Positions 6,444 to 40,828 of a DNA stretch of 64,000 nucleotides are shown here, in pieces. Origin of the DNA: Escherichia phage D6. The stretch lies in the sequence record NC_050154.1; one strand, 5' to 3'. The notes beneath the pieces were generated by a model, which had not been told where the DNA came from, ran no database searches, and worked only from the letters and a program-made list of their open reading frames with translations. How positions within the stretch are numbered: position 1 is the stretch's first letter; the number at the start of each line of letters is the position of its first letter. The position numbers and the translations under genes were made by a program.

Positions 6444-6877
6444 TACAGATAATCTTCCACACGAAGGCCCAAACGACGGCCTACTTCTTCCAGTACTTTG
6501 TGTTCTGCTGGCTCGATTTCACCGTCCGCTTCTGCAATCGTCAGCATGTTAACGAATACTTCTTCCGCTTCTTTTGGATCATTTTTGATATCTTCAATTT
6601 CGCGAAGGATATTCATGCGACCAACACGGAAACCAGCTTCCAGTTGCTCAGTAAAACGGGTGATTGTTGCGGTAATTTCGTTGCCAAAATGACTTAAGCG
6701 AGGATTAGAGCGGACAAGCTGATCAAGTTTCGCTGTTTCTTCCTTTTCGATTTCACCATCTGCGGCAGACACCAACAAACAGCCACCGATAATGGCCTCC
6801 ATCAGATCGCGATTCTCAACCCTTTTCAGCTCTACTTTTGCTGAAGCGACTTTCTTACCGAAAAATTTACCGAACAT
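6443..6877 (-). CDS. TerB-family protein (TciA-like)
   Basis: 144 aa; duplicated acidic EADGEIE motifs typical of TerB; P1 carries TerB-like tciA next to its tRNA genes. Confidence 0.55.
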   Translation of the reverse strand: MFGKFFGKKVASAKVELKRVENRDLMEAIIGGCLLVSAADGEIEKEETAKLDQLVRSNPRLSHFGNEITATITRFTEQLEAGFRVGRMNILREIEDIKNDPKEAEEVFVNMLTIAEADGEIEPAEHKVLEEVGRRLGLRVEDYL

Positions 6878-7144
6878 TGGTTATCCCTCAATAAACATGA
6901 CGTATTTATTAGGTTGCGGTGCCTGGTGCCTCCAGGTGACGTTAACCAGTTAACAATTAACGCCGGGATTTTTGACTTAACCACTAAGGAGGATTGTTTT
7001 AACTGTTCCGCGTGCGCTTAGCCGCATTCACCGCAATGGTAAGAGCACTTGGCTGGCTGGGCGGCGATGACGCCTGTACGCATTTGGTGATCCGGTTCTG
7101 CTTCCGGCATTCGCTTAATTAGCCAAATACTCTTAACGTTGCGC

Positions 7145-7231
7145 TGGCGGAGAGTAATGGAATCGAACCATCATCGCTTGCGCAATGGGACGGTTTTCAA
7201 GACCGCTTGAGCACCATGCGCCCTACTCTCC
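7145..7231 (-). tRNA. Atypical type-II tRNA-like gene (anticodon TGA, Ser?) or pseudo-tRNA
   Basis: Perfect 7-bp acceptor GGAGAGT/ACTCTCC with encoded CCA; anticodon arm GCGGT-CTTGAAA-ACCGT; variable arm with GCAA tetraloop; T-arm GATGG-TTCGATT-CCATT; D-arm not canonical. Confidence 0.4.
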
Positions 7232-7378
7232 GGCCGTTGTGGTGGCCGGTACTGAATCTCCGGCATACGGTGCAGCCAATTAGGACTACGGACGATCACC
7301 GCTCGCGAAAGGGAAGATTTGCGGCCGCATTTCCCTAACATCCAAGAAAGCTATCGCATCAGCCTGCGAATCCACCAC

Positions 7379-7466
7379 AACGTTGAGAACACTGGTTGTC
7401 ACGCTGCAACGCAACATTTATTCGTAGATTGGGATATGACCCCGTTACGCCAGTGTTCTCAACGTT
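7379..7466. repeat. Long-stem hairpin H1 (17-bp perfect inverted repeat, 54-nt loop)
   Basis: aacgttgagaacactgg ... ccagtgttctcaacgtt. Confidence 0.7.
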
Positions 7467-7608
7467 GTAGTGCCGGTTACGGTTCCGGCCAGGCCTCTTC
7501 CTCAACGGGGTGTTCTCCGTACGGACTACCGTTTATTGGTCGTTCCTGCGGTTTATGTTGTGAAGCCAGATGCTTATCTTCTGGTTGCTTCAAAGAGCTG
7601 CACTTCAT

Positions 7609-7695
7609 CACAACGGTAAGGGTACTTCGTAGGGATTCGAACCCTCTGCCAAGCTCGGCGATCTCCGACGTCGCAAAATACCCTTACCTGTTGTG
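7609..7695. repeat. Long-stem hairpin H2 (16-bp stem with one bulge) enclosing a T-arm-like GGTTCGAATCC element
   Basis: cacaacggtaagggta ... tacccttacctgttgtg; internal agggattcgaaccct; directly adjacent to tRNA-Thr; does not fold as a complete tRNA. Confidence 0.6.
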
Positions 7696-7696
7696 C

Positions 7697-7772
7697 TGGT
7701 GCCGATTAACGGACTCGAACCGCTGACATCCTGCTTACAAGGCAGGCGCTCTACCAACTGAGCTAAACCGGC
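7697..7772 (-). tRNA. tRNA-Thr (anticodon TGT)
   Basis: Clean cloverleaf folded by hand: acceptor GCCGGTT/AATCGGC, anticodon stem CCTGC/GCAGG, loop CTTGTAA, T-loop TTCGAGT, encoded CCA. Confidence 0.9.
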
Positions 7773-7774
7773 AT

Positions 7775-7850
7775 TGGCGATGGTGGATGGATTTGAACCA
7801 TCGACCCGTTGATTAACAGTCAACCGCTCTAACCGCTGAGCTACACCATC
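7775..7850 (-). tRNA. tRNA-Asn (anticodon GTT)
   Basis: Clean cloverleaf: acceptor GATGGTG/CACCATC, anticodon stem GTTGA/TCAAC, loop CTGTTAA, T-loop TTCAAAT, encoded CCA. Confidence 0.9.
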
Positions 7851-8353
7851 ACTTGCCGGGTACGTCTCCGGCGAGGGCTTCCACCTCCGTATGCTTTTCG
7901 GCGCACCGCGCCCTGGCTGCAATTCGGTAACAGGGGATGCACAACCCTGGCTTCCAGCGTGATTAGCGCCTTCAGCATGACGGGATATACCCGTTACAAG
8001 AAATTCCCCCAGGATGCCATTAAGCAATGGCTGTTACGCGGGAGGGACGTAACAGGTAAGGGCGCTGACCAGAAAGACCTGACCCTTCTCATTCATCTGG
8101 TTAATCACACCAGCGCCCTTGCCTGTTATGCCTCCCCGTTCCCTAATACACAGACGGGGACACTCTGCGGTCGATTTTTTGACGGGGGACGACTCATACC
8201 CCGTGGCGTCTGGCTTCTTAGGCCGCTACCATCATCAGATCATCGTTTGCATTTACTTTAATGGTCGGTTTCTAAACCGCCGCAAAGTCGCTAACCATGA
8301 CGAAAACCCTAAAAAAGCCCACCCGAAGATGGGCAAATACGCTACATCTCACA

Positions 8354-22493: not shown

Positions 22494-23492
22494 TTATGCC
22501 CGTCGCGAAACGAAGAGTAATGGGGTAGTATTTTTGCTCTCCTTCGGCGATAACTCCGGCTCTTTCTTGCCTGATATCGGCAAGCCATAAGTCGCATTTG
22601 CCCCCATAGATTCAAGCATCGCAGCCACTATGCGAGCATCATCTTCAGACTGCATACGGCAGAGCGCCCGACGCTGTTCTGCGCTGATAAAAACAGGCAT
22701 TTCCTGGATAGCGTCACGCAAAATCCGGCGGCATTGCTTTGCATTTTCCCCCTGGCTTTCCATCATCGCTGTTTGAGCGCGCAGCTTATCTCGAAGCTGT
22801 ATGTTTTCCACTTCAAGGAGCATCAATTCTGATTCCAGGGCTTCACGATGTGCAGATTCGAGCATGGCTTGCTGATTTTTCATTGCTGAAAAGTGGTGAA
22901 CCAGATCCGTAGCAGCGTTATCGGTAAAACCTTGTTCGATAAGTGCTGCATGAATAGCCGCATCGCGCTCTTCTGCTGATTCAAGCATCAGGCTTTTCTT
23001 GTCGAGGCTGATATAGTTAGGCACAGTTACGTAATCAAAGCCGTGGAAAGACTTTACCAGGGATACCGATGAATCTGGACCAGATGTAGCCCACGACCAA
23101 CCACCAGCACCAGAATTAATCATGCCCTGAACAATACGCCCGGTGTCTGTATCCAGTATTTCCTGCGTATGAGTAACAATGCCGTTGTCGTCAATCGAAA
23201 TGTCGATAGTCCTGTTTGACGGCACGTTCTCCAATACAACAGGCTTCCCATCTACCATCACAACAGAGACTTCCGGCAAGTTCAGGCTTTTCGTTTTGTT
23301 ATAGTGCATCGCCCGGCGACCATGACCGTAATAACCATACATCTCACCCAGCGCGATACGCTCTTTTGTTTCTGGCGAGTTGAATGTGTCTCGTACCGAC
23401 TGAATGACGTAATTTCGGTTGTTCTGCGGTGTGTGTTTGCGGATTTTCTCTACCAGGGAGAAGCGATCCGTAACAGTATTCAGTGATTGCAT
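22494..23492 (-). CDS. Prohead protease/scaffold-like protein (Pro-like)
   Basis: 332 aa directly downstream of the portal-sized gene; GYYGHG motif; C-terminal coiled-coil-like region. Confidence 0.45.
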   Translation of the reverse strand: MQSLNTVTDRFSLVEKIRKHTPQNNRNYVIQSVRDTFNSPETKERIALGEMYGYYGHGRRAMHYNKTKSLNLPEVSVVMVDGKPVVLENVPSNRTIDISIDDNGIVTHTQEILDTDTGRIVQGMINSGAGGWSWATSGPDSSVSLVKSFHGFDYVTVPNYISLDKKSLMLESAEERDAAIHAALIEQGFTDNAATDLVHHFSAMKNQQAMLESAHREALESELMLLEVENIQLRDKLRAQTAMMESQGENAKQCRRILRDAIQEMPVFISAEQRRALCRMQSEDDARIVAAMLESMGANATYGLPISGKKEPELSPKESKNTTPLLFVSRRA

Positions 23493-23505: not shown

Positions 23506-25188
23506 TTAATTGCTCATCACAAATTTTGCAAAGTTTATTAACTGTTCTGGCGTCCAGTTTTCCGGATCGTCACCGGACGACAACGGCGCGGATTCGTACA
23601 TACCATGCTCGTTGTTTTGCTCTGATTCATTCGCCTTAAACTCTTTGATCATGGTGTTGAGAGTGTCATCGTCGATGTGCAACTGCTCAGTGAACAGATA
23701 ACGCATAAACGCGTCGCTACCAGCCAGTTTCGGGTTGTTCTGGATCTGGTCCATAATTTGGGAGATGACAGCAACAAAGTTGGCGCGTGCATCCAGTTCT
23801 CGGTTTTCCTCTTCCTGGATAGCAGTGTTCATTGAGTTGAATTGCACGTCATAAGGGCGGTTTGTTTCGGTGTAAACCTTGCCGTATTTATAAGCGAGGT
23901 GAATGTCCAGAAGCCGATAAATAGTTCGCTGGGCGGCCTGTCTGATCCAGTTCGCACGCAATGCAGCCTGGATAGCAGTTTGCTGCCAGCCGCCTTCTCC
24001 AAGCCCTCCGCTCATCTGATCAGCCCAGCCAAGCATTGTTGCGTCAATGCCGAGGCTTGCAGCAAGCTGCCGGAGGTGAAACATAACGTCTTCGATACCA
24101 CTGATATCTGCGGGTATGGATTGCGTATCAATGGTGATGCCGTTCTTCCCGTCTCCCATAACAGGTATCAGATGGTTAAGCACAGTCGGAATAGCGTTGG
24201 CATTAATCGACCTTTGCGCCACCAGGTCACTATGACGCTTCAATGCCTGGCTGACGCCACGCGTATAGTTCGCCGCATTAACCGGGTCCAGTGTGTTCGT
24301 CGTAAGAGCAATCAGGCGGTCAATTTTGGCTGCATTATTTCGCGTTGATTTCAGCGCGGCGAGCGAAGCACATAAATTAAGGTAAGGTTCATAGCTGTAT
24401 TCCAGGAATGAAGTTCCGTAATTCTGCGTCTCCATTAACGGCTTATCAGCCTGATCACTTAACAGTGAGTACCCTTTTGTGCCGTAGCTAACCGGAATAA
24501 CTTTATGCTGTGGCGTCCAATAGGGATTTTTCATGGAAACCAGATTCCACGGTTCGGTTATTACTCTGCGCAAACTATGCGTATCCAGAATGTAATCACC
24601 ACTGAAACCTACCAGCTGGCTACCACGATAAAACTCCTGGACGAAGTGTGGCAGAGTGTAATAACTGGACTCAATGCCTGTTATCCCCCTGCCCTGTTCA
24701 GCATAAGGTCGGACATAAGACACCCCAAAGATAGCCATAATCATGGCCCATGAAGGAAGTCCGTCATTAATCATCGCCCCCAAATCAGCGGTTAACTCTT
24801 CACATCTACTTACTGCCTCAGCATCGGAACCATCCTTTGGCGAAAGGATGAATGCTTGTCCGGTTTTTTTTGAAGGCGCAAGCGCATGTGCAATGTGAAT
24901 GTTTAAAGCCGTCGAGATAGTCGGGCTTTTAGCCATCGTTTCCAGGATGTTGTACTTTTGCAGGCGCTCGCCGGGCAGTTCAGCGGATAAAGAAATTGAA
25001 TCTGCTGCACTCGTCATGCCATCGCTGTTGCTCCCCAGTATACCTGGACGTAAAGCAGACAGGCCGGAACGAGCAACGACACTATGCCCGCTCGTAAAAA
25101 CGACCGGATCGGCGGGCGTAACATCACCACCGTTGAAGGCTTTCTTCAATGCTGACAGAAAGCCTTTGTTTTTGTCTTTCGTTGCCAT
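23506..25188 (-). CDS. Portal protein (Prt-like)
   Basis: 560 aa; immediately upstream of the protease-like gene; size and position as P1 prt. Confidence 0.5.
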   Translation of the reverse strand: MATKDKNKGFLSALKKAFNGGDVTPADPVVFTSGHSVVARSGLSALRPGILGSNSDGMTSAADSISLSAELPGERLQKYNILETMAKSPTISTALNIHIAHALAPSKKTGQAFILSPKDGSDAEAVSRCEELTADLGAMINDGLPSWAMIMAIFGVSYVRPYAEQGRGITGIESSYYTLPHFVQEFYRGSQLVGFSGDYILDTHSLRRVITEPWNLVSMKNPYWTPQHKVIPVSYGTKGYSLLSDQADKPLMETQNYGTSFLEYSYEPYLNLCASLAALKSTRNNAAKIDRLIALTTNTLDPVNAANYTRGVSQALKRHSDLVAQRSINANAIPTVLNHLIPVMGDGKNGITIDTQSIPADISGIEDVMFHLRQLAASLGIDATMLGWADQMSGGLGEGGWQQTAIQAALRANWIRQAAQRTIYRLLDIHLAYKYGKVYTETNRPYDVQFNSMNTAIQEEENRELDARANFVAVISQIMDQIQNNPKLAGSDAFMRYLFTEQLHIDDDTLNTMIKEFKANESEQNNEHGMYESAPLSSGDDPENWTPEQLINFAKFVMSN

Positions 25189-25272
25189 GAATCACCGCAA
25201 ATTGTTTCCAGTTTTGCGGCAGCATAATCAGTATGTGATTTGATAGGAGAGTTTTATTGGTGCTGTTAATGA

Positions 25273-25605
25273 TTACTTACACGCTTCCCTGCCCACATAG
25301 TCAGCGATGGAACCACTTACAATCCCCCCCATTTTGGGATCAGGTTTTGAATTTTTCATCTGTTCAAGCGTCTCCCCAGAACCAAGATACTTCACTTCAT
25401 TTGTCATGCAATTATATATTCTCTTCGAATATGCTTTCCCAGATGGGCCTTCCCTTTTTGTAATGATAGTTTTATATTCACCTTCACGACCAATATCCAG
25501 CACTGTATAAGTAGCTTTTGGATCAGAAGGGATTTTTATCTTATAGGGCGCAGCACAAACTGATGCAGAAGCTAATAAAGCACAAACCAGGATTATATTT
25601 CTCAT
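25273..25605 (-). CDS. Secreted small protein with signal peptide (possible MliC/PliC-like lysozyme inhibitor)
   Basis: 110 aa; signal peptide MRNIILVCALLASASVCA; SGSIADY resembles the MliC SxSGAxY motif; lies in an AT-rich island. Confidence 0.35.
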   Translation of the reverse strand: MRNIILVCALLASASVCAAPYKIKIPSDPKATYTVLDIGREGEYKTIITKREGPSGKAYSKRIYNCMTNEVKYLGSGETLEQMKNSKPDPKMGGIVSGSIADYVGREACK

Positions 25606-25649
25606 AACTATACTCCATGTTATAAATTATCAAAGCTAAGTAAGTAAAA

Positions 25650-26207
25650 CTAATCTGGATCAACAATAAGTTGTGAAACCTTCGCTGCAAGTCTTATATA
25701 GCGTTCAGCTTCATTTCTGGTGATTTCAAAATCCAGAAAGTGCGCGGCTTCATTTCTTAGCGAGCGAAGCCGTTTTAACAGCAAAGCAGCGGAATCTTCA
25801 AGTTTTCCTTCTTGAATCAACCAGTCAATGAATAGTTCTGGATTCCGTTTCGGCTTTAACCCTCCCTGTATAAAACCAGAGCGCCCGGCAGCCTCCTCTA
25901 CCATCAACCATGACTCCATAATAGCAGCTCTAGGTGAAAAATCAGCAATTCTCTCTAATTGTGCGATTTTATTTATATATTCAGAGTTATTATTACCATT
26001 GTTAATATTTCTATTCCCAACTGATGCTTCTGTTGCTAATACTTCTGCTGCGGTTAGTCCCGCATTAAACTCAGCTTCAGCTACTCCAATCTTGAATCTA
26101 CTCAGACGTACTATTAACTCCTTAATATCAACCCCATACTTATTAACAAACCACACAAACACCAATGGCCATGCAAGAGCTGAAACCAAATCTGTAAATG
26201 ATGACAT
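25650..26207 (-). CDS. Membrane-anchored HEPN-like protein (candidate toxin / abortive-infection effector)
   Basis: 185 aa; ATG start; N-terminal TM helix (LVSALAWPLVFVWFV); C-terminal LRSLRNEAAHF fits the HEPN R-x4-H motif; about 30% GC against ~45% in flanking genes. Confidence 0.4.
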   Translation of the reverse strand: MSSFTDLVSALAWPLVFVWFVNKYGVDIKELIVRLSRFKIGVAEAEFNAGLTAAEVLATEASVGNRNINNGNNNSEYINKIAQLERIADFSPRAAIMESWLMVEEAAGRSGFIQGGLKPKRNPELFIDWLIQEGKLEDSAALLLKRLRSLRNEAAHFLDFEITRNEAERYIRLAAKVSQLIVDPD

Positions 26208-26332
26208 CGGTTATCCTCATTCATTATATTTTCAGCTAGTTTACATATTATTAAACAGGAACAAAAATGAATTATGCGCCCATCTTCAGATATGTGATGA
26301 ACGCACAGAAAGAGCATTAAGTTACATTGATG

Positions 26333-27709
26333 TTACCCAACAGAGGTTGGCTCAAACATAGAAAAAATTAACCCTTTACCTTCGCCAAACTCAGTCTCAA
26401 TTTCATCAGAAACGGCAGATAAAATGCTACGCAGATCGACATCTCCGCCGCCGAACATATCGCCTAACGCTTGTTGTTGGTGAATAAGTTCATCGTTAAT
26501 TTTTTGCGCCAGTTTCTTGAAAGCGGCCCCCATTCGCTTAGCGCTTCGGTTGTTGGCAACAATAAACAGAGCAAGCGCTTCTGCTTCCGGAGTGCTATCT
26601 CCAAACAATCCACGCTGTGCGATCACCTCTTCTACTGCCTGACCGTTATCTTTTGCTTCACGAACAAGGTTAATTGCTTCCTGTAGCGCTGCAATAGCCT
26701 GTTTATCCAGACCATTCAATTGCTCTATACCGTCTACCAGTCCGGTTACCGTGTCATGGTGAACATCGCCAGACAGCGACTGCATTTGCGCAAAATCGCT
26801 GGCTGCCGTATTTAATGCGGTCAGGATATTACGCATTTCCGGATCTGGCTCTTCCGACACCAGCCGAACAAGCCTTTCATCCTTGTACGCTTTGGCAAAA
26901 ATTGCATTCTGGATGCGATCGATAAGCTGTTTCGTGGGACGCCCATCGGCAGTAAGCAAGCCTGCCGTCGCTGTATCGCCAATTTCGCGCAAAAACGCAC
27001 GAATAAACGCATCATTGGACCGCGCCAGCAGATTTCCATCATCTGAAGGATTAAATAGCGCCATGACGCTCTCAGTGAGAAATTGCGCATCCGCATACGC
27101 TTTTTCACTTGCTGCCATCTCTTGCAGATCGCTAATGTTTGAATCGCGGGCAAATTGAGCGCGGTCTACATCTGTGAGTCTTTCTCGCACCAGTACGGGC
27201 ATAGACATTTGCGAAATTTCGTCAGGATTCAGACCAAACTCTTTCGCATGGTCGATCAGGTACTGGCGATACTCATCCGCCTGTCCTTGCTCATAGGCAC
27301 GCCAGATACCCATACTCCTTCCGTTGCCGGATTCAACAACGTTGTCCGGACCAACTATCGGCGCTCCGTGGCTGCTCATACCGGAATCCATTAATTGTGC
27401 CGGGCGTAAATCGGAGGCAATACGGTTAACCTGGAGTTTGCTGGATAGCCGGGTACGATCTCGTGGTTGGAGTTCTTCCGGGAAGGCCGGGTTAATCGTA
27501 CCGTCAAGGTTGTTCGAAATGATCAGACTGCTGGCATCAACGACCTTAAAAGCCGTCTTTACCTCTGCACCTTTGCTGGTGACTACGTAGCTACTTCGCC
27601 CCAGGCGTGTTTCTTTCCTCTCTAATGAAGAAACCAGAGCAATGACGCTGTTAATATCTGCGGCCTCGGAAAGCGCAGAAGTAACTGATTTGTTCAAAAT
27701 ACACTCCAA
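26333..27709 (-). CDS. Hypothetical virion-associated protein (Ddr-like position)
   Basis: 458-aa ORF downstream of the darA-like gene. Confidence 0.3.
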   Translation of the reverse strand: MECILNKSVTSALSEAADINSVIALVSSLERKETRLGRSSYVVTSKGAEVKTAFKVVDASSLIISNNLDGTINPAFPEELQPRDRTRLSSKLQVNRIASDLRPAQLMDSGMSSHGAPIVGPDNVVESGNGRSMGIWRAYEQGQADEYRQYLIDHAKEFGLNPDEISQMSMPVLVRERLTDVDRAQFARDSNISDLQEMAASEKAYADAQFLTESVMALFNPSDDGNLLARSNDAFIRAFLREIGDTATAGLLTADGRPTKQLIDRIQNAIFAKAYKDERLVRLVSEEPDPEMRNILTALNTAASDFAQMQSLSGDVHHDTVTGLVDGIEQLNGLDKQAIAALQEAINLVREAKDNGQAVEEVIAQRGLFGDSTPEAEALALFIVANNRSAKRMGAAFKKLAQKINDELIHQQQALGDMFGGGDVDLRSILSAVSDEIETEFGEGKGLIFSMFEPTSVG

Positions 27710-27791: not shown

Positions 27792-28166
27792 TTACCCGGC
27801 ATAACCGTTGGCTTTCACCCAGCTTATGGTCTGCTCTTTAGCCTGCTCCAACGTAAGGAATTCACCAACATAGTTTGAGATCCCACGCAGCGCATCAATA
27901 AATTCCATTTGTGTGGACTTTGTGAACACGCCGCCCAGGAAGTCAGTCACTATCTTAGGAACTTCATCTGCAACAGGATCAGACTGTGGTTGTGGTTGCG
28001 GTTCCGACATCGGTTGAGCGGCAGTACCCAACCCCAGTTTAAGCATCAGATCAACAATCTGCTTACCAATGGCGACGCGTTGTAATACTGGCGCGGTTTT
28101 CTGCGCCTGCATTAAATCTGATAGCTCTTTACCCAATTTCAGACGGTCTAAAACAGAGATAGTCAT
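27792..28166 (-). CDS. Hypothetical protein (DdrA-like position)
   Basis: 124 aa, start/stop coupled to the darA-like gene. Confidence 0.3.
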   Translation of the reverse strand: MTISVLDRLKLGKELSDLMQAQKTAPVLQRVAIGKQIVDLMLKLGLGTAAQPMSEPQPQPQSDPVADEVPKIVTDFLGGVFTKSTQMEFIDALRGISNYVGEFLTLEQAKEQTISWVKANGYAG

Positions 28167-30142
28167 TAAGCACCTCCCTGCTGAATTTCAGCCAGAATGT
28201 TGATCAGGTAGTCAACTGCTGCGCCAACCGTTGATTCGTTCTCGTCGTATCGACCAGCACTGATAAGAGCGTTTGCAGCTTCCTGCACATGGTCAAGTTC
28301 GGCACTGATTACCGTCAGATCGCGAGATGTAAACTGCACCGGGACGGATTTAAGGTACTCCAACGCTTTATCTGCTTCCTGATCAGCTTCAGTTGCCGCT
28401 TCTTCAGCGTCTTCCGGCGTTGGCTGTTGCTCTGGTGCTGTTTGTGGGTGTGATTCTGGCTCAACTACAGGTGCTAATTCAGGATCTGGCGTTACTTCGT
28501 TTGAATGATTTTGAAGGGCGTTATATACGTCCATAATGAAAAGGTTCTCCCCATCACCAAGTGGATACGCCACGTTTGGAAACGCTTTGCGGAAAAGAAT
28601 TTTCACTTGCGCCTTGAATGTTTTCAGGTCACTGCCAAACAGGTCTACATAGCCATCAATATGTTTCGACATGCTGGACACAACCAATTGGCCTGCAAAA
28701 TCTTTCAGCTCATCTTCATCAGGAAGATAGAGCAACTCGTACTGGCTGACTTCTTCATCTGTCAGTTTACGGTCATACGTAATGATACCGTGACGAGCAT
28801 ATTCGTAATACTGATCAGCCTGGTCAGGACGATCAAGCACGGCTTTATTTCCATCCGGCACAGCACCAACACCAGCCGGGCGAGATAGAAGTGCATAGTG
28901 GTATTTACCTACATCCTGGCTCTCTGGTTGTGATACTGGGTTCGTCTCGGGGTCTGTCTGTGGTGGTTCGGGGTCTTCCTGCTGGCCTGGTAACACATCA
29001 ACTTTATATTTATCTGCGTTATGCTCTCGGTAGGCTTTAAGTAATTTGGTTGCAGCATCTGCCAAACTGCCTCCTTTGACAGCACTGGCATTAATACTGA
29101 ATTTACCTTCAGGTGCTACTATCGTAACGAAATTGTCACTGCCGGACGTGACATAATTAACTTCAGCGCCATTATCCAGCACTGTTTTTCCGTCAATGGC
29201 AAGATTATGTTTTACATGTCGCAGCTGGTCGCTAAACGCTCGTTCTTTCGTTTTTTCACCTTTAGCAGACAACAATTTATCGCGTGTTGCTTGTAATTCC
29301 TCGTTGATGGCTTTCTGGGCATCAAGTTTTTTTTGCATCTCCGTAAGAGCAGCACGCTTTTCAGTCAGCCCACGTTGCGCAACTTCCACCTGATCAATCA
29401 TTATTGACCGTTCTTCTGCCAGTTTATCTGCTTCATTGAGATAACTCTCAATATCTGCCTTCATTTTGTCCTGGCGCTCTTTTGCTTTCTTAAATTTTTC
29501 GCTGTTACGCTCAATCAAATTAGATAGCGCCTGGCATACCTGGCTTAAAGAAACATCTCTCCCACCAATCGGGGCGACAACGTGAGTTACGTTACGCTTA
29601 TTAAGTAAAAACTGAAATGCAACAAGCTCGTCGTTACTCTTTATTTTTGCCCCGTCAGCTGTTGGAGAGTGGAAAATTATGCTTGTACTCTGCCCGTCAG
29701 TAAGCGGTATCTGCGCGGTCAAAACAGGGATATTAGCTACCCGACGTACACGACCGATAATCGCACCACCAATACAATTACGTCCATTTTCATCGGTCCC
29801 AGCTTCATCAGTCCCTGCCATAATATTCGTACCATTCAGGCCACGATTCAGCGCACGGACGAAAGCTCGCATTGTTTGAGCTAACCGAATTCTGGTTGTA
29901 GTTATGGACTCAAACATAGCTTCGTCAGACACAACCAGAATTTCATTGCCCATATAGGCAAGCTCAATATCTTCTAAGGTCGCCGCCTCAAAAATCAGGT
30001 CATCTTCGCTTAATTCTTCTGAAGACCAGCGACTTGGCATATAGCCGGGGATCGTATCAGCAAAAGTAGACTGAATATTAATTCGTAAAGGATTGTTAAT
30101 CATGCTCATCCTCCAGGCGCGCGATTTCTTCTTTAAGAGCAC
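28166..30142 (-). CDS. DarA-like antirestriction/head-internal protein
   Basis: 658 aa (P1 DarA ~639 aa); downstream of holin/antiholin-like genes as in the P1 lydA-lydB-darA operon; acidic Pro/Glu-rich segments. Confidence 0.4.
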   Translation of the reverse strand: MLLKKKSRAWRMSMINNPLRINIQSTFADTIPGYMPSRWSSEELSEDDLIFEAATLEDIELAYMGNEILVVSDEAMFESITTTRIRLAQTMRAFVRALNRGLNGTNIMAGTDEAGTDENGRNCIGGAIIGRVRRVANIPVLTAQIPLTDGQSTSIIFHSPTADGAKIKSNDELVAFQFLLNKRNVTHVVAPIGGRDVSLSQVCQALSNLIERNSEKFKKAKERQDKMKADIESYLNEADKLAEERSIMIDQVEVAQRGLTEKRAALTEMQKKLDAQKAINEELQATRDKLLSAKGEKTKERAFSDQLRHVKHNLAIDGKTVLDNGAEVNYVTSGSDNFVTIVAPEGKFSINASAVKGGSLADAATKLLKAYREHNADKYKVDVLPGQQEDPEPPQTDPETNPVSQPESQDVGKYHYALLSRPAGVGAVPDGNKAVLDRPDQADQYYEYARHGIITYDRKLTDEEVSQYELLYLPDEDELKDFAGQLVVSSMSKHIDGYVDLFGSDLKTFKAQVKILFRKAFPNVAYPLGDGENLFIMDVYNALQNHSNEVTPDPELAPVVEPESHPQTAPEQQPTPEDAEEAATEADQEADKALEYLKSVPVQFTSRDLTVISAELDHVQEAANALISAGRYDENESTVGAAVDYLINILAEIQQGGA

Positions 30143-38076: not shown

Positions 38077-38170
38077 ACGAACATAGCTCCTTCATAAGCA
38101 ATGAACCAAAGGAGAGTATGCTCAGTTTGTGATTTCCGTTGTTCTTCCCCCAAATGCGGGGGAGGAATTA

Positions 38171-39016
38171 TTAAACAGGTTGAAGGTGGTAATCCAAAGG
38201 CCACGCATCGAGTGGGGTTACATCAAGATGTAATTGCTTTTCTGCCGTTCGGTTCGGTATGGCGTTAAGAGAAATATTGTCTACCTGGCAGGAGGTATCA
38301 CTACGGGATAGCATATCAGCCATACTCTCAGTAACATAAACACCTTCAATTACCGAAACATCCGTAGACAAGCAATTTAGTATTTCTGCCACTTCAGGGA
38401 ATACAGCACTAAGCCGAAACGAGACGCCATCAAAAACAATATGCAATGGCAATAAAGGGGCTATTACTGTTTCGAAGTCAGATAACAATTTCTGTACAGC
38501 GGCTTCTTTATCCTGCTCTCCATATGAGCGATATAGCTTGTTCTGATCAACAACGACCAGCCCCCTTGATGTCAGGAAGAACTCACCGAATTGAGCCTGT
38601 GCCGTAGGTATTTCTATTTCGGTCGCAAAATATGAACCATAGGGGTGTTTTTCTATATTTACAGGTGCATACAGCGGTTCCCAACTAACAGGAATACAAC
38701 CGAATTCACGCCAGAATGTCTGCTCAATTGGCAAGATAGTGCCTTTAAAGTGCACTTCATCTAAACGTTGTGCCAGCAGCATTGGCCTACGAGCCTTATC
38801 TTTTTCAGTGATAACGAAAAAACGCCCGTATTCAGCAATGCGGGCATCCATGTCCTCACTGTCCATAGTGAAGAAGGATTTTCTGTTACTTATTCTTGTT
38901 AATATTGGTTCTACTGCCTCATTCCAGACATCCTGTAAAGCGTCTATAAATGCACTCCAGAGATGTGAATCCTGTTTTACTTTAGTTAATCGTTCCTTAA
39001 GCCAATTATCTTTCAT
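38171..39016 (-). CDS. Baseplate protein (gene 16-like position)
   Basis: 281-aa ORF between baseplate J-like and R-like genes. Confidence 0.35.
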   Translation of the reverse strand: MKDNWLKERLTKVKQDSHLWSAFIDALQDVWNEAVEPILTRISNRKSFFTMDSEDMDARIAEYGRFFVITEKDKARRPMLLAQRLDEVHFKGTILPIEQTFWREFGCIPVSWEPLYAPVNIEKHPYGSYFATEIEIPTAQAQFGEFFLTSRGLVVVDQNKLYRSYGEQDKEAAVQKLLSDFETVIAPLLPLHIVFDGVSFRLSAVFPEVAEILNCLSTDVSVIEGVYVTESMADMLSRSDTSCQVDNISLNAIPNRTAEKQLHLDVTPLDAWPLDYHLQPV

Positions 39017-39026
39017 GCTAACCTCA

Positions 39027-40457
39027 TTACGGGTAAGAAATGCTGAACGTTGAAGATTTCACGTCAAGATAAATGAAGTCATTAAAGTAAACTGCATCTT
39101 TCATATTTTGTATTGTTATGTCATAAGAGAGAAACATATCCAGCGACTCTATTACTCGCCAAATATCTTTAACTTTTACCTGTGCATAACATTGCTGAGA
39201 ATCATCATCACTCTGTAGTAATAAACTGAATGATGACGAATCACGACCAAAATTTTCTTCCAACGCTGCTTTAATAGCATTTTGAGCGTCGTCTATCAGA
39301 ACATTTTTACGTGCAATACCTGTAAATTTTATAGTAAATGGTTGTTCATTTGTATCTACATACTCAAACCGCTTGTTCAACTCATTTGGAACATTCTCTA
39401 GAGCTTTCAGTATTTCTGATTTTAGCTGAGCCTGGCTTACACCTGGCTTATGTCCGCAAAAGAAAATCTTGTTGATGTTTCGAACGTCAAACCCAGTTAT
39501 TTTCTCTTGCAACGCTTCGCCCCAAACGTTCAACCATGAAGTTCCATGAACAACATTCTGAATGAATTGGCGATAATCACCGCCCCATACCACTTGTTCA
39601 TCGTATGCAACATAATACTGAGCACGATTTCGAGTTTCTTCTGTAGTTTCCATACCACTACCACCGGTAATGATCGAATCAGTTTTAAACTCTAGTGACT
39701 CCACATATTGAGCGATATTTCCAGCCGGTTCTAACTTTTGTCCTTCAGCCAAAGTATAGTCGCCAAGGCTAGCCATAACATCGATTCGAACCTGACAGCC
39801 TGCTGGAGGCATCATACCCATAGAACCATCACCAAACTTGACTCCAAGTTGTTCTGTAGGTTTATATGCCAATGAATAGTGCTTACTCTTGTCTCTGGAC
39901 ATTCTAAATAATGGGTTATATGTCCATTTTTCTTCTACGCCATCTGTAATAACATAAACATCCAGGCTAGAGACTTCTTTTGTTAATTCTCTGGAAAGCA
40001 ACAATGTCAGAAATAAAGTTTCCTTCTCAATATCAAATGTAACGCTAACAGCTTCATGCTGTTTAGTTTCTACGCCAGAAACAGTTCCTCCAGCAGGAAT
40101 TACAACACTGTTAATAATTGCCAAAGGTGTTTGGTCATTGGCAAGCAATTCAGCCCCGGCTGGTAACGTAATATCCCGATCAGTTTTATTGGTTATAGAC
40201 GTTGTTCCGTATGAAGCACTAACAAATCGCCCTACGTAGCTACGGTCTTCAGCAACCGCTAAAATACTTGAGCGGCGCGTAGCCGTTGAAATAAGTCCCT
40301 CAGTGAGGCCGCGGCTTGCAAATGTACGGGCAATATAAATAAGCTGTGATCCGAATATAGCGTGCATCTGCACAAACTGACTATTTACAAATCGTGACCA
40401 CCATGTGTTTTCATTTAACTTGGCGTTAAATTTGTCCAGTAATTCTGTAATCGTCAC
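39027..40457 (-). CDS. Baseplate J-like protein (BplA-like)
   Basis: 476 aa downstream of the W/gp25-like gene; classic myovirus baseplate order. Confidence 0.45.
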   Translation of the reverse strand: MTITELLDKFNAKLNENTWWSRFVNSQFVQMHAIFGSQLIYIARTFASRGLTEGLISTATRRSSILAVAEDRSYVGRFVSASYGTTSITNKTDRDITLPAGAELLANDQTPLAIINSVVIPAGGTVSGVETKQHEAVSVTFDIEKETLFLTLLLSRELTKEVSSLDVYVITDGVEEKWTYNPLFRMSRDKSKHYSLAYKPTEQLGVKFGDGSMGMMPPAGCQVRIDVMASLGDYTLAEGQKLEPAGNIAQYVESLEFKTDSIITGGSGMETTEETRNRAQYYVAYDEQVVWGGDYRQFIQNVVHGTSWLNVWGEALQEKITGFDVRNINKIFFCGHKPGVSQAQLKSEILKALENVPNELNKRFEYVDTNEQPFTIKFTGIARKNVLIDDAQNAIKAALEENFGRDSSSFSLLLQSDDDSQQCYAQVKVKDIWRVIESLDMFLSYDITIQNMKDAVYFNDFIYLDVKSSTFSISYP

Positions 40458-40828
40458 GCGCCCACCCCACTTGATTTCTGCATAACAATATCCATGCTCC
40501 CACCTTTCGCATAAAAACTAATTAATAAAGAATCTTCAGAAATTGATGTGCAACGAATCCCCTGCACATCCAAACCTGGCAAGTCTTGTCGTAGTTTTTT
40601 CATCATTCTCCCTTCAATAGCCACTTCAACTATGTGCGAAGTTTCAGAGCCGAATGGTTCATGCTTAAATTCTTCCATTGGATTCCCCCAAGAGGGTAAA
40701 CCATAAACACTCCCTTCAGGGGTTCGTAGCCACTCGTCAAGTCGGGCCATCCATGCTGCGGAACTTCCTTCTGCAATAATGACACCGCTCTCATTCGTTT
40801 GAAGTCTTGCGTCTATTTCATAAAGCAT
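40454..40828 (-). CDS. Baseplate wedge gpW/gp25-like protein
   Basis: 124 aa; directly downstream of the tape-measure gene and coupled to the J-like gene. Confidence 0.45.
   Translation of the reverse strand: MLYEIDARLQTNESGVIIAEGSSAAWMARLDEWLRTPEGSVYGLPSWGNPMEEFKHEPFGSETSHIVEVAIEGRMMKKLRQDLPGLDVQGIRCTSISEDSLLISFYAKGGSMDIVMQKSSGVGA

What the first reader, a model, noticed from the sequence alone, without database searches (positions are those of the whole stretch)
25273..26207. AT-rich two-gene island upstream of the portal gene: secreted protein plus membrane-anchored HEPN-like protein
About 1.1 kb between the Ddr-like gene and the portal gene drops to roughly 30% GC, against about 45% in the flanking structural genes, which marks a horizontally acquired insert. 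It encodes (a) a 110-aa protein with a clear signal peptide and an SGSIADY motif reminiscent of MliC/PliC lysozyme inhibitors, and (b) a 185-aa protein with one N-terminal TM helix and a C-terminal LRSLRNEAAHF segment that fits the HEPN R-x4-H RNase motif. A membrane-tethered HEPN protein in a prophage insertion slot is a plausible single-protein abortive-infection or toxin module. I do not recognise this architecture as a named defence system.
Basis: partly seen in the sequence, partly recalled or inferred. Interest (0 to 1): 0.7.

Follow-up and report, generated by a model that had tools for sequence, protein, structure and literature searches.

The report
Membrane-anchored HEPN gene island in P1-like prophage
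A 1.1-kb low-GC insert in a P1-like plasmid prophage carries two unrelated accessory genes, a membrane-tethered predicted RNase of a widespread family already described by computation, which probably acts in phage or mobile-element defence, and a small secreted protein of unknown role; it is a plausible but untested and fairly ordinary cargo island.

Summary
Window 25242-26338 is a 1,097-bp insert at 38% GC (third codon positions about 31%; flanks 49%), not about 30%. It is present at 99% identity or more in 14 P1-like plasmids. About 100 relatives lack it and have the ddrB-like gene abutting the portal gene.

The family is large: 4,233 50%-identity clusters at E<=1e-10. It is stand-alone with no conserved partner. 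It sits in satellite accessory slots, at an ICE end and in integron cassettes, sometimes next to defence genes. A single-gene abortive-infection-type RNase is therefore the best reading, but it is inferred.

ORF110 (25273-25605, minus strand) is a secreted protein with two invariant cysteines. It is an independent prophage accessory gene with a Protein-E-like fold. The MliC/PliC idea is not supported.

Verdict: new member of a known kind, moderate-to-low interest.

The parts
25242..26338 (.). Inserted island of 1,097 bp at 38.3% GC, lying between the ddrB-like gene and the portal gene. It is absent from about 100 related P1-like plasmids.
   Evidence: Alignment to island-free relatives L002 and L004; megablast against plasmids; composition.
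25650..26207 (-). ORF185: membrane-anchored DUF4145/HEPN protein (185 aa plus stop codon).
26142..26189 (-). Codons for residues 7-22: the N-terminal transmembrane helix. The conserved W13-P14 pair is at 26166-26171.
   Evidence: Maximum Kyte-Doolittle 19-residue window is at the N-terminus (1.63). W13 and P14 are at least 90% conserved in 57 homologues. This matches the 'WP signature' TM class of PMC3710099.
25662..25988 (-). Codons for residues 74-182: the five-helix HEPN (DUF4145) domain. It includes the invariant SPRAA..E..W..E motif (25896-25937).
25740..25757 (-). Codons for R151-N-E-A-A-H156, the R-x4-H putative catalytic motif.
   Evidence: R151 is invariant; N152 and H156 are at least 90% conserved. 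A weak profile match to the same motif of HepS (9oij) has E 0.24.
26208..26332 (-). AT-rich (32.8% GC) 125-nt leader carried by the island upstream of ORF185, with a sigma-70-like site at 26298-26271 (ATCACA-16-CATAAT). It may hold the gene's own promoter.
   Evidence: Composition. The promoter scan found the site but no more sites than in shuffles. An own promoter is inferred only.
25273..25605 (-). ORF110: secreted small protein (110 aa plus stop codon). Signal-peptide codons are about 25549-25605. Two invariant cysteines, C66 and C109.
26333..27709 (-). Upstream flank: ddrB-ParB-domain gene of the Dar-like block. Its last codons and its stop codon are supplied by the island junction.
   Evidence: Pfam ddrB-ParB, E 1e-42; junction alignment showing a 40-nt difference from L004.
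23506..25188 (-). Downstream flank: portal gene, 100% identical in island-free relatives up to position 25241.
   Evidence: PHROG portal family, E 6e-230; alignments.

Best explanation
The region is a roughly 1.1-kb accessory-gene ('moron') insertion. It arose once, at the ddrB-like/portal junction of one lineage of P1-like phage-plasmids of E. coli and Salmonella. It carries two functionally independent cargo genes.

Gene 1 (ORF185) belongs to a large stand-alone family of about 190-aa inner-membrane proteins. Its layout is:
- a very short periplasmic N-terminus;
- one TM helix with a conserved Trp-Pro pair;
- a long conserved cytoplasmic helix;
- a variable disordered linker;
- a cytoplasmic DUF4145/HEPN domain with an R-x4-H motif.

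By analogy with characterised HEPN and DUF4145 proteins (RAZR/PD-T7-4, HepS, Tha), the most likely mechanism is a latent membrane-tethered RNase. It would be made in the lysogen and activated by an infection-associated cue, either a membrane or envelope event or a protein of an incoming phage or other element. It would then cleave cellular RNA at the inner face of the membrane and stop growth, aborting the competitor's replication.

Gene 2 (ORF110) is a secreted periplasmic protein with two invariant cysteines (a disulfide is inferred) and a Protein-E-like sheet-plus-helix fold. It recurs alone in lysogeny-associated accessory slots of other prophages, and its role is unknown.

Shown: the insertion, the domain architecture, motif conservation, fold similarity, family size, the lack of a conserved partner, and the mobile-element contexts. 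Inferred: RNase activity, topology, expression in the lysogen, the trigger, and the defence phenotype.
For: Insertion and single origin:
- 14 of 115 related plasmids carry the island and about 100 have an empty slot.
- The island occurs only on plasmids, in 9 of 5,426 complete E. coli genomes, all at 99% identity or more.

HEPN identity:
- Pfam DUF4145, E 7.6e-4 for this protein; 48 of 57 family members hit it (best 2.8e-8). HEPN_Swt1 is hit in 23 members and RiboL-PSP in 8.
- R151 is invariant and H156 near-invariant.

Architecture:
- It matches the WP-TM + DUF4145 class described in PMC3710099.
- The family is large and uniform: 7,407, 4,233 and 669 clusters at E<=1e-3, 1e-10 and 1e-30. The top 150 are all full-length matches, nearly all 177-221 aa, with four of 257-285 aa that carry an N-terminal extension.

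Stand-alone gene in mobile contexts:
- In Klebsiella and Raoultella satellites it lies directly after the primase gene. That slot was shown to hold immune genes (PMC11364771). The same satellite carries PD-T7-1 in its 5' slot.
- It lies at the end of an ICE next to tRNA-Thr in Salmonella and E. coli.
- In several diverse loci it is followed by an attC-like hairpin (L053, L068, L071, L076, L082, L086). Integron cassettes are documented defence libraries.
- Neighbours include AbiTii, a weak HepT-like hit, CBASS cyclases, TIR and MADS genes.

Precedent: DUF4145 is catalytically required in a validated defence RNase, RAZR (PMC13017515).

ORF110 independence: homologues sit after a CI-like repressor or before the tape-measure gene in other prophages, with no HEPN gene nearby.
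Against: - There is no experimental datum for this family.
- No PADLOC model matches it or its relatives.
- The defence association of neighbours is modest: roughly 5% of 149 immediate neighbours, and many neighbours are housekeeping genes. No control set was available.
- The promoter-like site in the leader is no better than chance.
- The genes lie co-directionally inside a late structural operon with no predicted terminator. They may be expressed mainly in lytic growth rather than in the lysogen.
Confidence: 0.55

Rival explanations
1. ORF185 acts against other mobile elements, or as an addiction or competition toxin for the plasmid prophage (plasmid loss or exclusion, post-segregational effects), rather than against phages.
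For: A DUF4145/HEPN single-gene system (Ishtar) causes loss of plasmid RP4 (bioRxiv 10.64898/2026.07.06.735840). The host element is itself a plasmid, and homologues sit at an ICE end.
Against: There is no antitoxin-like partner: no MNT gene, and ORF110 is periplasmic. Homologues also occur in phage satellites and prophage-like viral contigs. Ishtar has a different C-terminal domain and no TM helix.
Confidence: 0.15
2. ORF185 is a phage-beneficial late function, such as a host-takeover or RNA-processing RNase expressed with the head genes during lytic growth, and not a lysogen-expressed defence.
For: It has the same orientation as the flanking late genes (the Dar-like block, portal and protease). 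No terminator is predicted between them, and no convincing promoter of its own was found.
Against: About 100 closely related phage-plasmids do without it. Homologues are common in non-phage contexts: integron cassettes, ICEs and small chromosomal islets. Many of these have long upstream intergenic regions or divergent neighbours, which implies autonomous transcription.
Confidence: 0.12
3. The two genes work together: the periplasmic ORF110 senses or gates an envelope event and signals to the membrane-anchored HEPN protein.
For: They are adjacent, co-directional and 44 nt apart. They are always found together in this island. PMC3710099 proposed that the WP-TM segment senses surface stimuli.
Against: No co-occurrence outside this island. 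ORF185 relatives have unrelated neighbours: a 175-aa cytoplasmic protein, a dCTP-deaminase-like protein, AbiTii, capsid genes and other cassettes. ORF110 relatives sit alone in other prophages. The periplasmic part of ORF185 is only about 6 residues.
Confidence: 0.07
4. ORF110 is a periplasmic lysozyme inhibitor of the MliC/PliC type.
Confidence: 0.05
5. ORF185 is an anti-restriction accessory of the adjacent Dar-like block, acting as a decoy of the DUF4145 N-terminal domain found on some type I HsdR subunits.
For: It lies directly next to the darA-, ddrA- and ddrB-like genes. A weak NCBIfam match falls on the N-terminus of a type I endonuclease model (E 0.036). DUF4145 is fused to restriction enzymes (PMC3710099).
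Against: The match simply reflects the shared domain. The membrane anchor argues against capsid packaging as seen for Dar proteins. Homologues elsewhere have no Dar context. The catalytic R and H are conserved, which a decoy would not need.
Confidence: 0.05

Closest known systems
WP-signature TM + DUF4145 HEPN proteins (Anantharaman et al. 2013, Biol Direct 8:15; example from Vibrio cholerae)
   Same: Single N-terminal TM helix with a conserved Trp-Pro pair, followed by a cytoplasmic DUF4145-type HEPN domain with an R-x4-H motif. It is a small stand-alone protein.
   Different: Nothing architectural differs. That description is purely computational and proposed stimulus-dependent RNA degradation, not specifically phage defence. 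The occurrence in a P1-like phage-plasmid, in satellites and in integron cassettes was worked out here.
RAZR / PD-T7-4 (PMC13017515)
   Same: A single-protein system whose effector is a DUF4145-type HEPN RNase. The catalytic Arg and His are required. It works by abortive infection.
   Different: RAZR has an N-terminal zinc ribbon, is soluble, has R146/H154 spacing, and is activated by assembling around phage ring proteins (portal, Gp77). ORF185 has a TM anchor, no zinc ribbon, and no hit to any PADLOC model.
HEPN-TM system of phage-inducible chromosomal islands (Fillol-Salom et al. 2022 Cell, as cited in PMC11087260 and PMC12948488)
   Same: Combines HEPN with a transmembrane element, is carried by phage satellites, and has broad anti-phage activity. 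Klebsiella and Raoultella homologues of ORF185 also sit in satellite accessory slots.
   Different: As I recall, that system is catalogued as two genes (a HEPN protein and a TM protein) located at an island end. Here both parts are in one polypeptide, and satellite homologues lie after the primase gene. Homology could not be tested because the paper and models are not available to me.
HepS and Tha (prophage-encoded single HEPN abortive-infection proteins; PMC13043305, PMC11087260)
   Same: Prophage-borne single-gene HEPN RNases held inactive until a structural protein of an incoming phage appears. Both have an R-x4-H motif. There is a weak local profile match to HepS at the motif (E 0.24).
   Different: Both are soluble, have different N-terminal sensor regions, and belong to different HEPN subfamilies. 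Neither has a membrane anchor.
Haemophilus influenzae Protein E (for ORF110)
   Different: About 10% identity. ORF110 has no lipobox, because the Cys in its signal peptide is not conserved. It is shorter and prophage-borne. No adhesin function is implied.

Membership tests
HEPN superfamily, DUF4145 family (PF13643) | Significant match to the family profile | tested here: met
   This sequence alone is sub-threshold (19.9 bits against a gathering score of 23.1, E 7.6e-4). However, 48 of 57 full-length homologues match DUF4145 (best 2.8e-8), and the other Pfam hits are almost all HEPN-clan models (one member hit DUF4559). PGAP names the identical protein DUF4145.
HEPN superfamily, DUF4145 family (PF13643) | Conserved R-x4-6-H motif | tested here: met
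   R151-N-E-A-A-H156. R is invariant; N and H are at least 90% conserved in 57 sequences.
HEPN superfamily, DUF4145 family (PF13643) | All-alpha HEPN helical-bundle fold | tested here: met
HEPN superfamily, DUF4145 family (PF13643) | RNase activity and dimeric composite active site | not testable with these tools
   This needs biochemistry. No multimer prediction was available.
WP-TM + DUF4145 membrane-associated HEPN class (PMC3710099) | [quoted passage not shown] | tested here: met
   Hydrophobic residues 7-22; W13 and P14 are at least 90% conserved. The AF2 helix starts at residue 2.
WP-TM + DUF4145 membrane-associated HEPN class (PMC3710099) | C-terminal domain of the DUF4145 type | tested here: met
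PICI HEPN-TM defence system (Fillol-Salom 2022) | Sequence homology to its HEPN and TM components | not testable with these tools
   The paper is not held. No models are in the PADLOC copy, and no PADLOC hit was found. The DefenseFinder models are unavailable.
PICI HEPN-TM defence system (Fillol-Salom 2022) | Carried in an accessory region of a phage satellite | tested here: inconclusive
   True for the Klebsiella and Raoultella homologues, which lie in the slot after the primase gene. The window gene itself is in a phage-plasmid, not a satellite.
RAZR / PD-T7-4 | N-terminal Cys4 zinc ribbon plus a match to the PD-T7-4 model | tested here: not met
   The N-terminus is a TM helix with no Cys4 cluster. 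No PADLOC hit at E<=1 for the protein or E<=0.1 for 57 relatives.
HEPN-MNT (type VII) toxin-antitoxin | Adjacent minimal nucleotidyltransferase antitoxin gene | tested here: not met
   The neighbours are the ddrB-like gene and the secreted ORF110. No MNT gene is present here or in the surveyed loci.
MliC/PliC lysozyme inhibitors (ORF110) | Match to the MliC family profile and an eight-stranded beta-barrel fold | tested here: not met
MliC/PliC lysozyme inhibitors (ORF110) | Conserved S-x-S-G-x-x-Y loop that inserts into lysozyme | tested here: inconclusive
   SGSIADY is present, and S99, I100, A101 and Y103 are at least 90% conserved. However, the segment is predicted helical. The comparison motif is from memory.
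Integron gene cassette | attC recombination site directly downstream of the gene | tested here: not met
   Not met in the window: only 44 nt and 31 nt follow the two stop codons, and no attC-like hairpin is present. It is met for several distant homologues (L053, L068, L071, L076, L082, L086).

The most novel reading that the evidence does not exclude
The WP-TM/DUF4145 proteins may be a very widespread, still unvalidated and unnamed single-gene immune system. Thousands of 50%-identity clusters exist across many phyla, spread as integron cassettes and as satellite, ICE and phage-plasmid cargo. Their membrane anchor would let a HEPN RNase sense an envelope-level step of infection or DNA entry directly. 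This would be a sensing mode different from the soluble HEPN defences activated by phage structural proteins.
Probability: 0.3. Interest if true: 0.6.

Novelty: new member of a known kind. Interest (0 to 1): 0.35.

Why it matters
If the inferred function is right, this P1-like lineage carries a compact defence gene that could shape which phages or plasmids can coexist with it. The lineage is common in livestock-associated E. coli and Salmonella. The same approximately 190-aa family is abundant in integron cassette arrays and phage satellites, and it is absent from the defence-gene library I could search (PADLOC-DB v2.0.0). A single validation experiment would therefore annotate thousands of genes. 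It would also test a 2013 prediction that membrane-tethered HEPN domains couple surface stimuli to RNA degradation. As it stands the finding is a plausible, ordinary accessory-gene island with an already annotated domain.

Tried and rejected
1. The 'phages' collection returned nothing for DNA or protein, not even for the portal flank. It seems to lack P1-like genomes, so plasmid and E. coli genome collections were used instead.
2. PADLOC gave no hit for either protein or for 57 relatives of ORF185.
3. The NCBIfam match to a type I HsdR model (E 0.036) was judged to be shared-domain noise.
4. A PDB sequence-profile search gave only a weak HepS motif match for ORF185. The ORF110 hit to a flagellin-repeat protein was spurious; no single stretch was significant.
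5. An Rfam scan of 24900-26700 found nothing.
6. Terminal direct or inverted repeats that might explain the insertion: only short chance-level repeats were found. The 8-nt TATGTGAT near both ends is not at the boundaries. On the coding strand the upstream junction reads G|TTGGGT, an integron core-site-like heptamer, but there is no attC-like element at the other end. I do not claim integrase-mediated insertion.
7. A P1 C1-operator consensus recalled from memory had no match within 3 mismatches anywhere in the window.
8. The Fillol-Salom 2022 paper could not be retrieved by DOI or PMID, and 'FS_HEPN_TM' appears in no held paper.
9. The afdb50 fold library was unavailable.
11. A shared partner was sought and rejected: the 175-aa neighbour in Serratia and two viral contigs is unrelated to the dCTP-deaminase-like neighbour.

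Full report
**What is in the sequence.** On the minus strand the window reads, from high to low coordinates:
- a darA-like head protein gene (28166-30142);
- a ddrA-like gene (27792-28166);
- a gene with a ddrB-ParB domain (26333-27709);
- ORF185 (25650-26207);
- ORF110 (25273-25605);
- the portal gene (23506-25188);
- a head-processing gene (22494-23492).

The window is 100% identical over the tested 2 kb to unnamed 90-96-kb plasmids of porcine E. coli. It is 99.7% identical to Salmonella plasmids of the same replicon cluster, so it is a P1-like phage-plasmid. Both ORFs have AGGA or GGAG ribosome-binding sites 7 nt upstream of the ATG.

**Composition.** The island is 38.3% GC, each ORF is 40% with GC3 of 31-32%, and the 125-nt leader is 32.8%. 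The flanking genes are 49% and the window mean is 47.2%. Only 0.6% of 1.1-kb windows are this low, and the only other such stretch lies at about 38.3-40.2 kb.

**It is an insertion.** Megablast against plasmids found 115 related records. Fourteen carry the segment: twelve at 99% identity or more, and two error-rich Salmonella sp. records at 90-94%. Almost all the rest match both flanks within a 941-942-bp span, which means the ddrB-like gene abuts the portal gene with a 64-bp spacer.

Alignment with an island-free relative that has a 96% identical ddrB allele (L004) is identical up to window 25241 (...CAGTATGTGATTT). It resumes at about 26339 (CAGAGGTTGGCT...). The insert is therefore 25242-26338, or 1,097 bp. 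The island-bearing lineage also lacks 40 nt at the 3' end of the ddrB-like gene, which now terminates on a stop codon supplied by the island.

The island occurs only on plasmids, in 9 of 5,426 complete E. coli genomes, always at 99% identity or more. The exact proteins, or single-residue variants, are on record from hundreds of draft contigs of Salmonella and E. coli. No terminal repeats or recombination sites explain the insertion.

The slot is moderately variable. One relative has an IS200/IS605 tnpA-tnpB element there. Another has different small genes and a 1,013-aa ddrB-like gene.

**ORF185.** Pfam gives DUF4145 at 19.9 bits, just below the gathering score, and a weaker HEPN_RiboL-PSP hit. 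PGAP labels the identical protein "DUF4145 domain-containing". A homologue search returned 103 clusters, almost all 180-200 aa and full length. They come from Serratia, Klebsiella, Salmonella, Yersinia, Cronobacter and Pantoea, and extend to Cloacimonetes and Methylocystis.

In a 57-sequence alignment:
- invariant residues are S91-P-R-A-A95, E98, W100, E104, R151, A154 and Y170;
- residues at least 90% conserved are W13, P14, K39, E44, F47, L51, R86, L130, L150, N152, H156, F160 and A174.

Forty-eight of the 57 members hit DUF4145 (best 2.8e-8), 23 hit HEPN_Swt1 and 8 hit RiboL-PSP.

The positive-inside rule applied to the sequence places the six N-terminal residues outside and the HEPN domain in the cytoplasm. 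This is an inference.

**The architecture is already described.** Anantharaman et al. [quoted passage not shown] They proposed stimulus-dependent RNA degradation at the membrane (PMC3710099).

**Family size and contexts.** A profile search of 1.84 billion cluster representatives found 7,407, 4,233 and 669 clusters at E<=1e-3, 1e-10 and 1e-30. The best 150 are all full-length matches. Nearly all are 177-221 aa, and four of 257-285 aa carry an N-terminal extension.

Contexts are diverse and there is no conserved partner:
- **Klebsiella and Raoultella.** The gene lies in a phage satellite directly after the D5-type primase gene and before the capsid genes. That position was shown to carry immune genes in such satellites (PMC11364771). 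The same satellite has PD-T7-1 in its 5' slot.
- **Salmonella and E. coli.** It sits at the end of an integrative conjugative element beside tRNA-Thr and proA.
- **Serratia.** It forms a small islet between nrdDG and arsP, together with a 175-aa cytoplasmic protein that is also its neighbour in two viral contigs.
- **A metagenomic lineage.** It precedes a dCTP-deaminase-like gene.
- **Viral contigs.** Neighbours include an AbiTii protein, a weak HepT-like protein and an 8xMP membrane protein.
- **Genome survey.** Of the 54 loci returned, I gene-called 44 from many phyla. Many show arrays of small co-directional ORFs. In at least six loci (L053, L068, L071, L076, L082, L086) the gene is followed at once by a hairpin of the attC type, of the form GCCTAAC...GTTAGGC. 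These are integron cassettes.

Of 149 immediate neighbours in the genome survey, a few are CBASS cyclases with SLATT or AGS-C partners, TIR or bSEFIR proteins, and MADS components. Most are unrelated singletons, including housekeeping genes. I had no control set, so this is only a modest association.

**Mechanistic reading.** Validated relatives at the domain level behave as latent RNases that abort infection:
- RAZR/PD-T7-4 has a DUF4145 domain whose Arg and His are required. It cleaves single-stranded RNA after assembling on phage portal or Gp77 rings (PMC13017515).
- HepS and Tha are single prophage HEPN proteins triggered by tail proteins.
- BxaP and Ishtar are further DUF4145 proteins that act against phage and plasmid respectively.
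- A satellite-borne "HEPN-TM" system with broad activity is cited from Fillol-Salom et al. 2022. I could not obtain that paper or its models, so identity with ORF185 is untested.

I therefore commit, at about 0.55 confidence, to ORF185 being a membrane-tethered HEPN RNase that acts as a single-gene abortive-infection or exclusion module for the lysogen. The points against this are:
- no PADLOC model matches;
- the promoter evidence is no better than chance;
- the gene lies co-directionally within a late operon with no predicted terminator, which leaves room for a lytic-cycle role.

**ORF110.** The family (108 hits) consists of proteins of about 110 aa from Enterobacterales, Pseudomonas, Xanthomonas, Thiobacillus and others. 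All have an N-terminal signal peptide and two invariant cysteines, C66 and C109. The Cys inside the window protein's signal peptide is not conserved, so the protein is a secreted SPase-I substrate and not a lipoprotein.

Homologues sit in classic accessory-gene positions. One lies directly after a CI/LexA-type repressor in a Pseudomonas prophage. Others lie just before the tape-measure gene in Serratia and other siphovirus-type prophages. None has a HEPN gene nearby.

**Verdict.** The object is a recently acquired two-gene accessory island whose interesting gene belongs to a known, annotated and computationally described family. Its defence role is plausible but untested here. I rate it a new member of a known kind, with interest 0.35.

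Noticed in passing
window 26333-26352, compared with L004 3443-3500: The island-bearing lineage lacks 40 nt at the 3' end of the ddrB-like gene. The protein ends ...FEPTSVG on a stop codon supplied by island DNA, instead of the longer C-terminus (461 aa) seen in island-free relatives.
   Followed up: partly
L031 (CP057763.1, 69.6-71.4 kb) and L032 (NZ_CP035876.1, 11.1-15.3 kb): The same ddrB-like/portal junction holds an IS200/IS605 tnpA-tnpB element in one relative. In another it holds different small genes (including an XRE-family gene) next to a 1,013-aa ddrB-like gene. The junction is therefore a modest cargo hot spot.
   Followed up: partly
L053, L068, L071, L076, L082, L086 (downstream of the homologue in each): Distant homologues of ORF185 are integron gene cassettes. 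attC-type hairpins (for example GCCTAAC...GTTAGGC) start within a few bases of the stop codon. In Holophaga foetida (L068) eight attC-like sites of 113-131 nt (five of them 125 nt) punctuate the array.
   Followed up: partly
L010 6704-7231, L035 8699-9226, L036 984-1508: In the clade closest to ORF185 (58% identity) the downstream gene is a conserved 175-aa cytoplasmic protein. It has no Pfam or PADLOC hit and contains an ...AINALKHGDG... segment. In the window its place is taken by the unrelated secreted ORF110.
   Followed up: partly
L017 390-1739 and 5001-5576: A Klebsiella phage satellite carries PD-T7-1 (PADLOC E 4e-156) in its 5' accessory slot and the ORF185 homologue in the slot after the primase gene. 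It has two cargo positions in one 10-kb element.
   Followed up: no
window about 38170-40460: This is the second low-GC stretch of the window (about 38-39% GC over 1.1-kb windows). It covers two minus-strand ORFs of 281 and 476 aa in the structural region.
   Followed up: no
window 26332-26340, minus strand: On the coding strand the upstream island junction reads G|TTGGGT. This matches the integron core-site consensus GTTRRRY at the expected cut position, but no attC-like site exists at the other end. It is probably coincidence.
   Followed up: partly
L047 (contig labelled Chryseobacterium sp. 18061): This contig holds a 58%-identical homologue followed by a convergent ORF of about 470 aa (6660-8069) in the same position as the 468-aa neighbour in the Salmonella and E. 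coli ICE. This suggests contamination or recent transfer in that assembly.
   Followed up: no
'phages' collection: No DNA or protein match was found, not even for the portal-gene flank. Yet both island proteins match PHROG families end to end (phrog_18019, phrog_13843). The phage collection used here appears to lack P1-like genomes.
   Followed up: no
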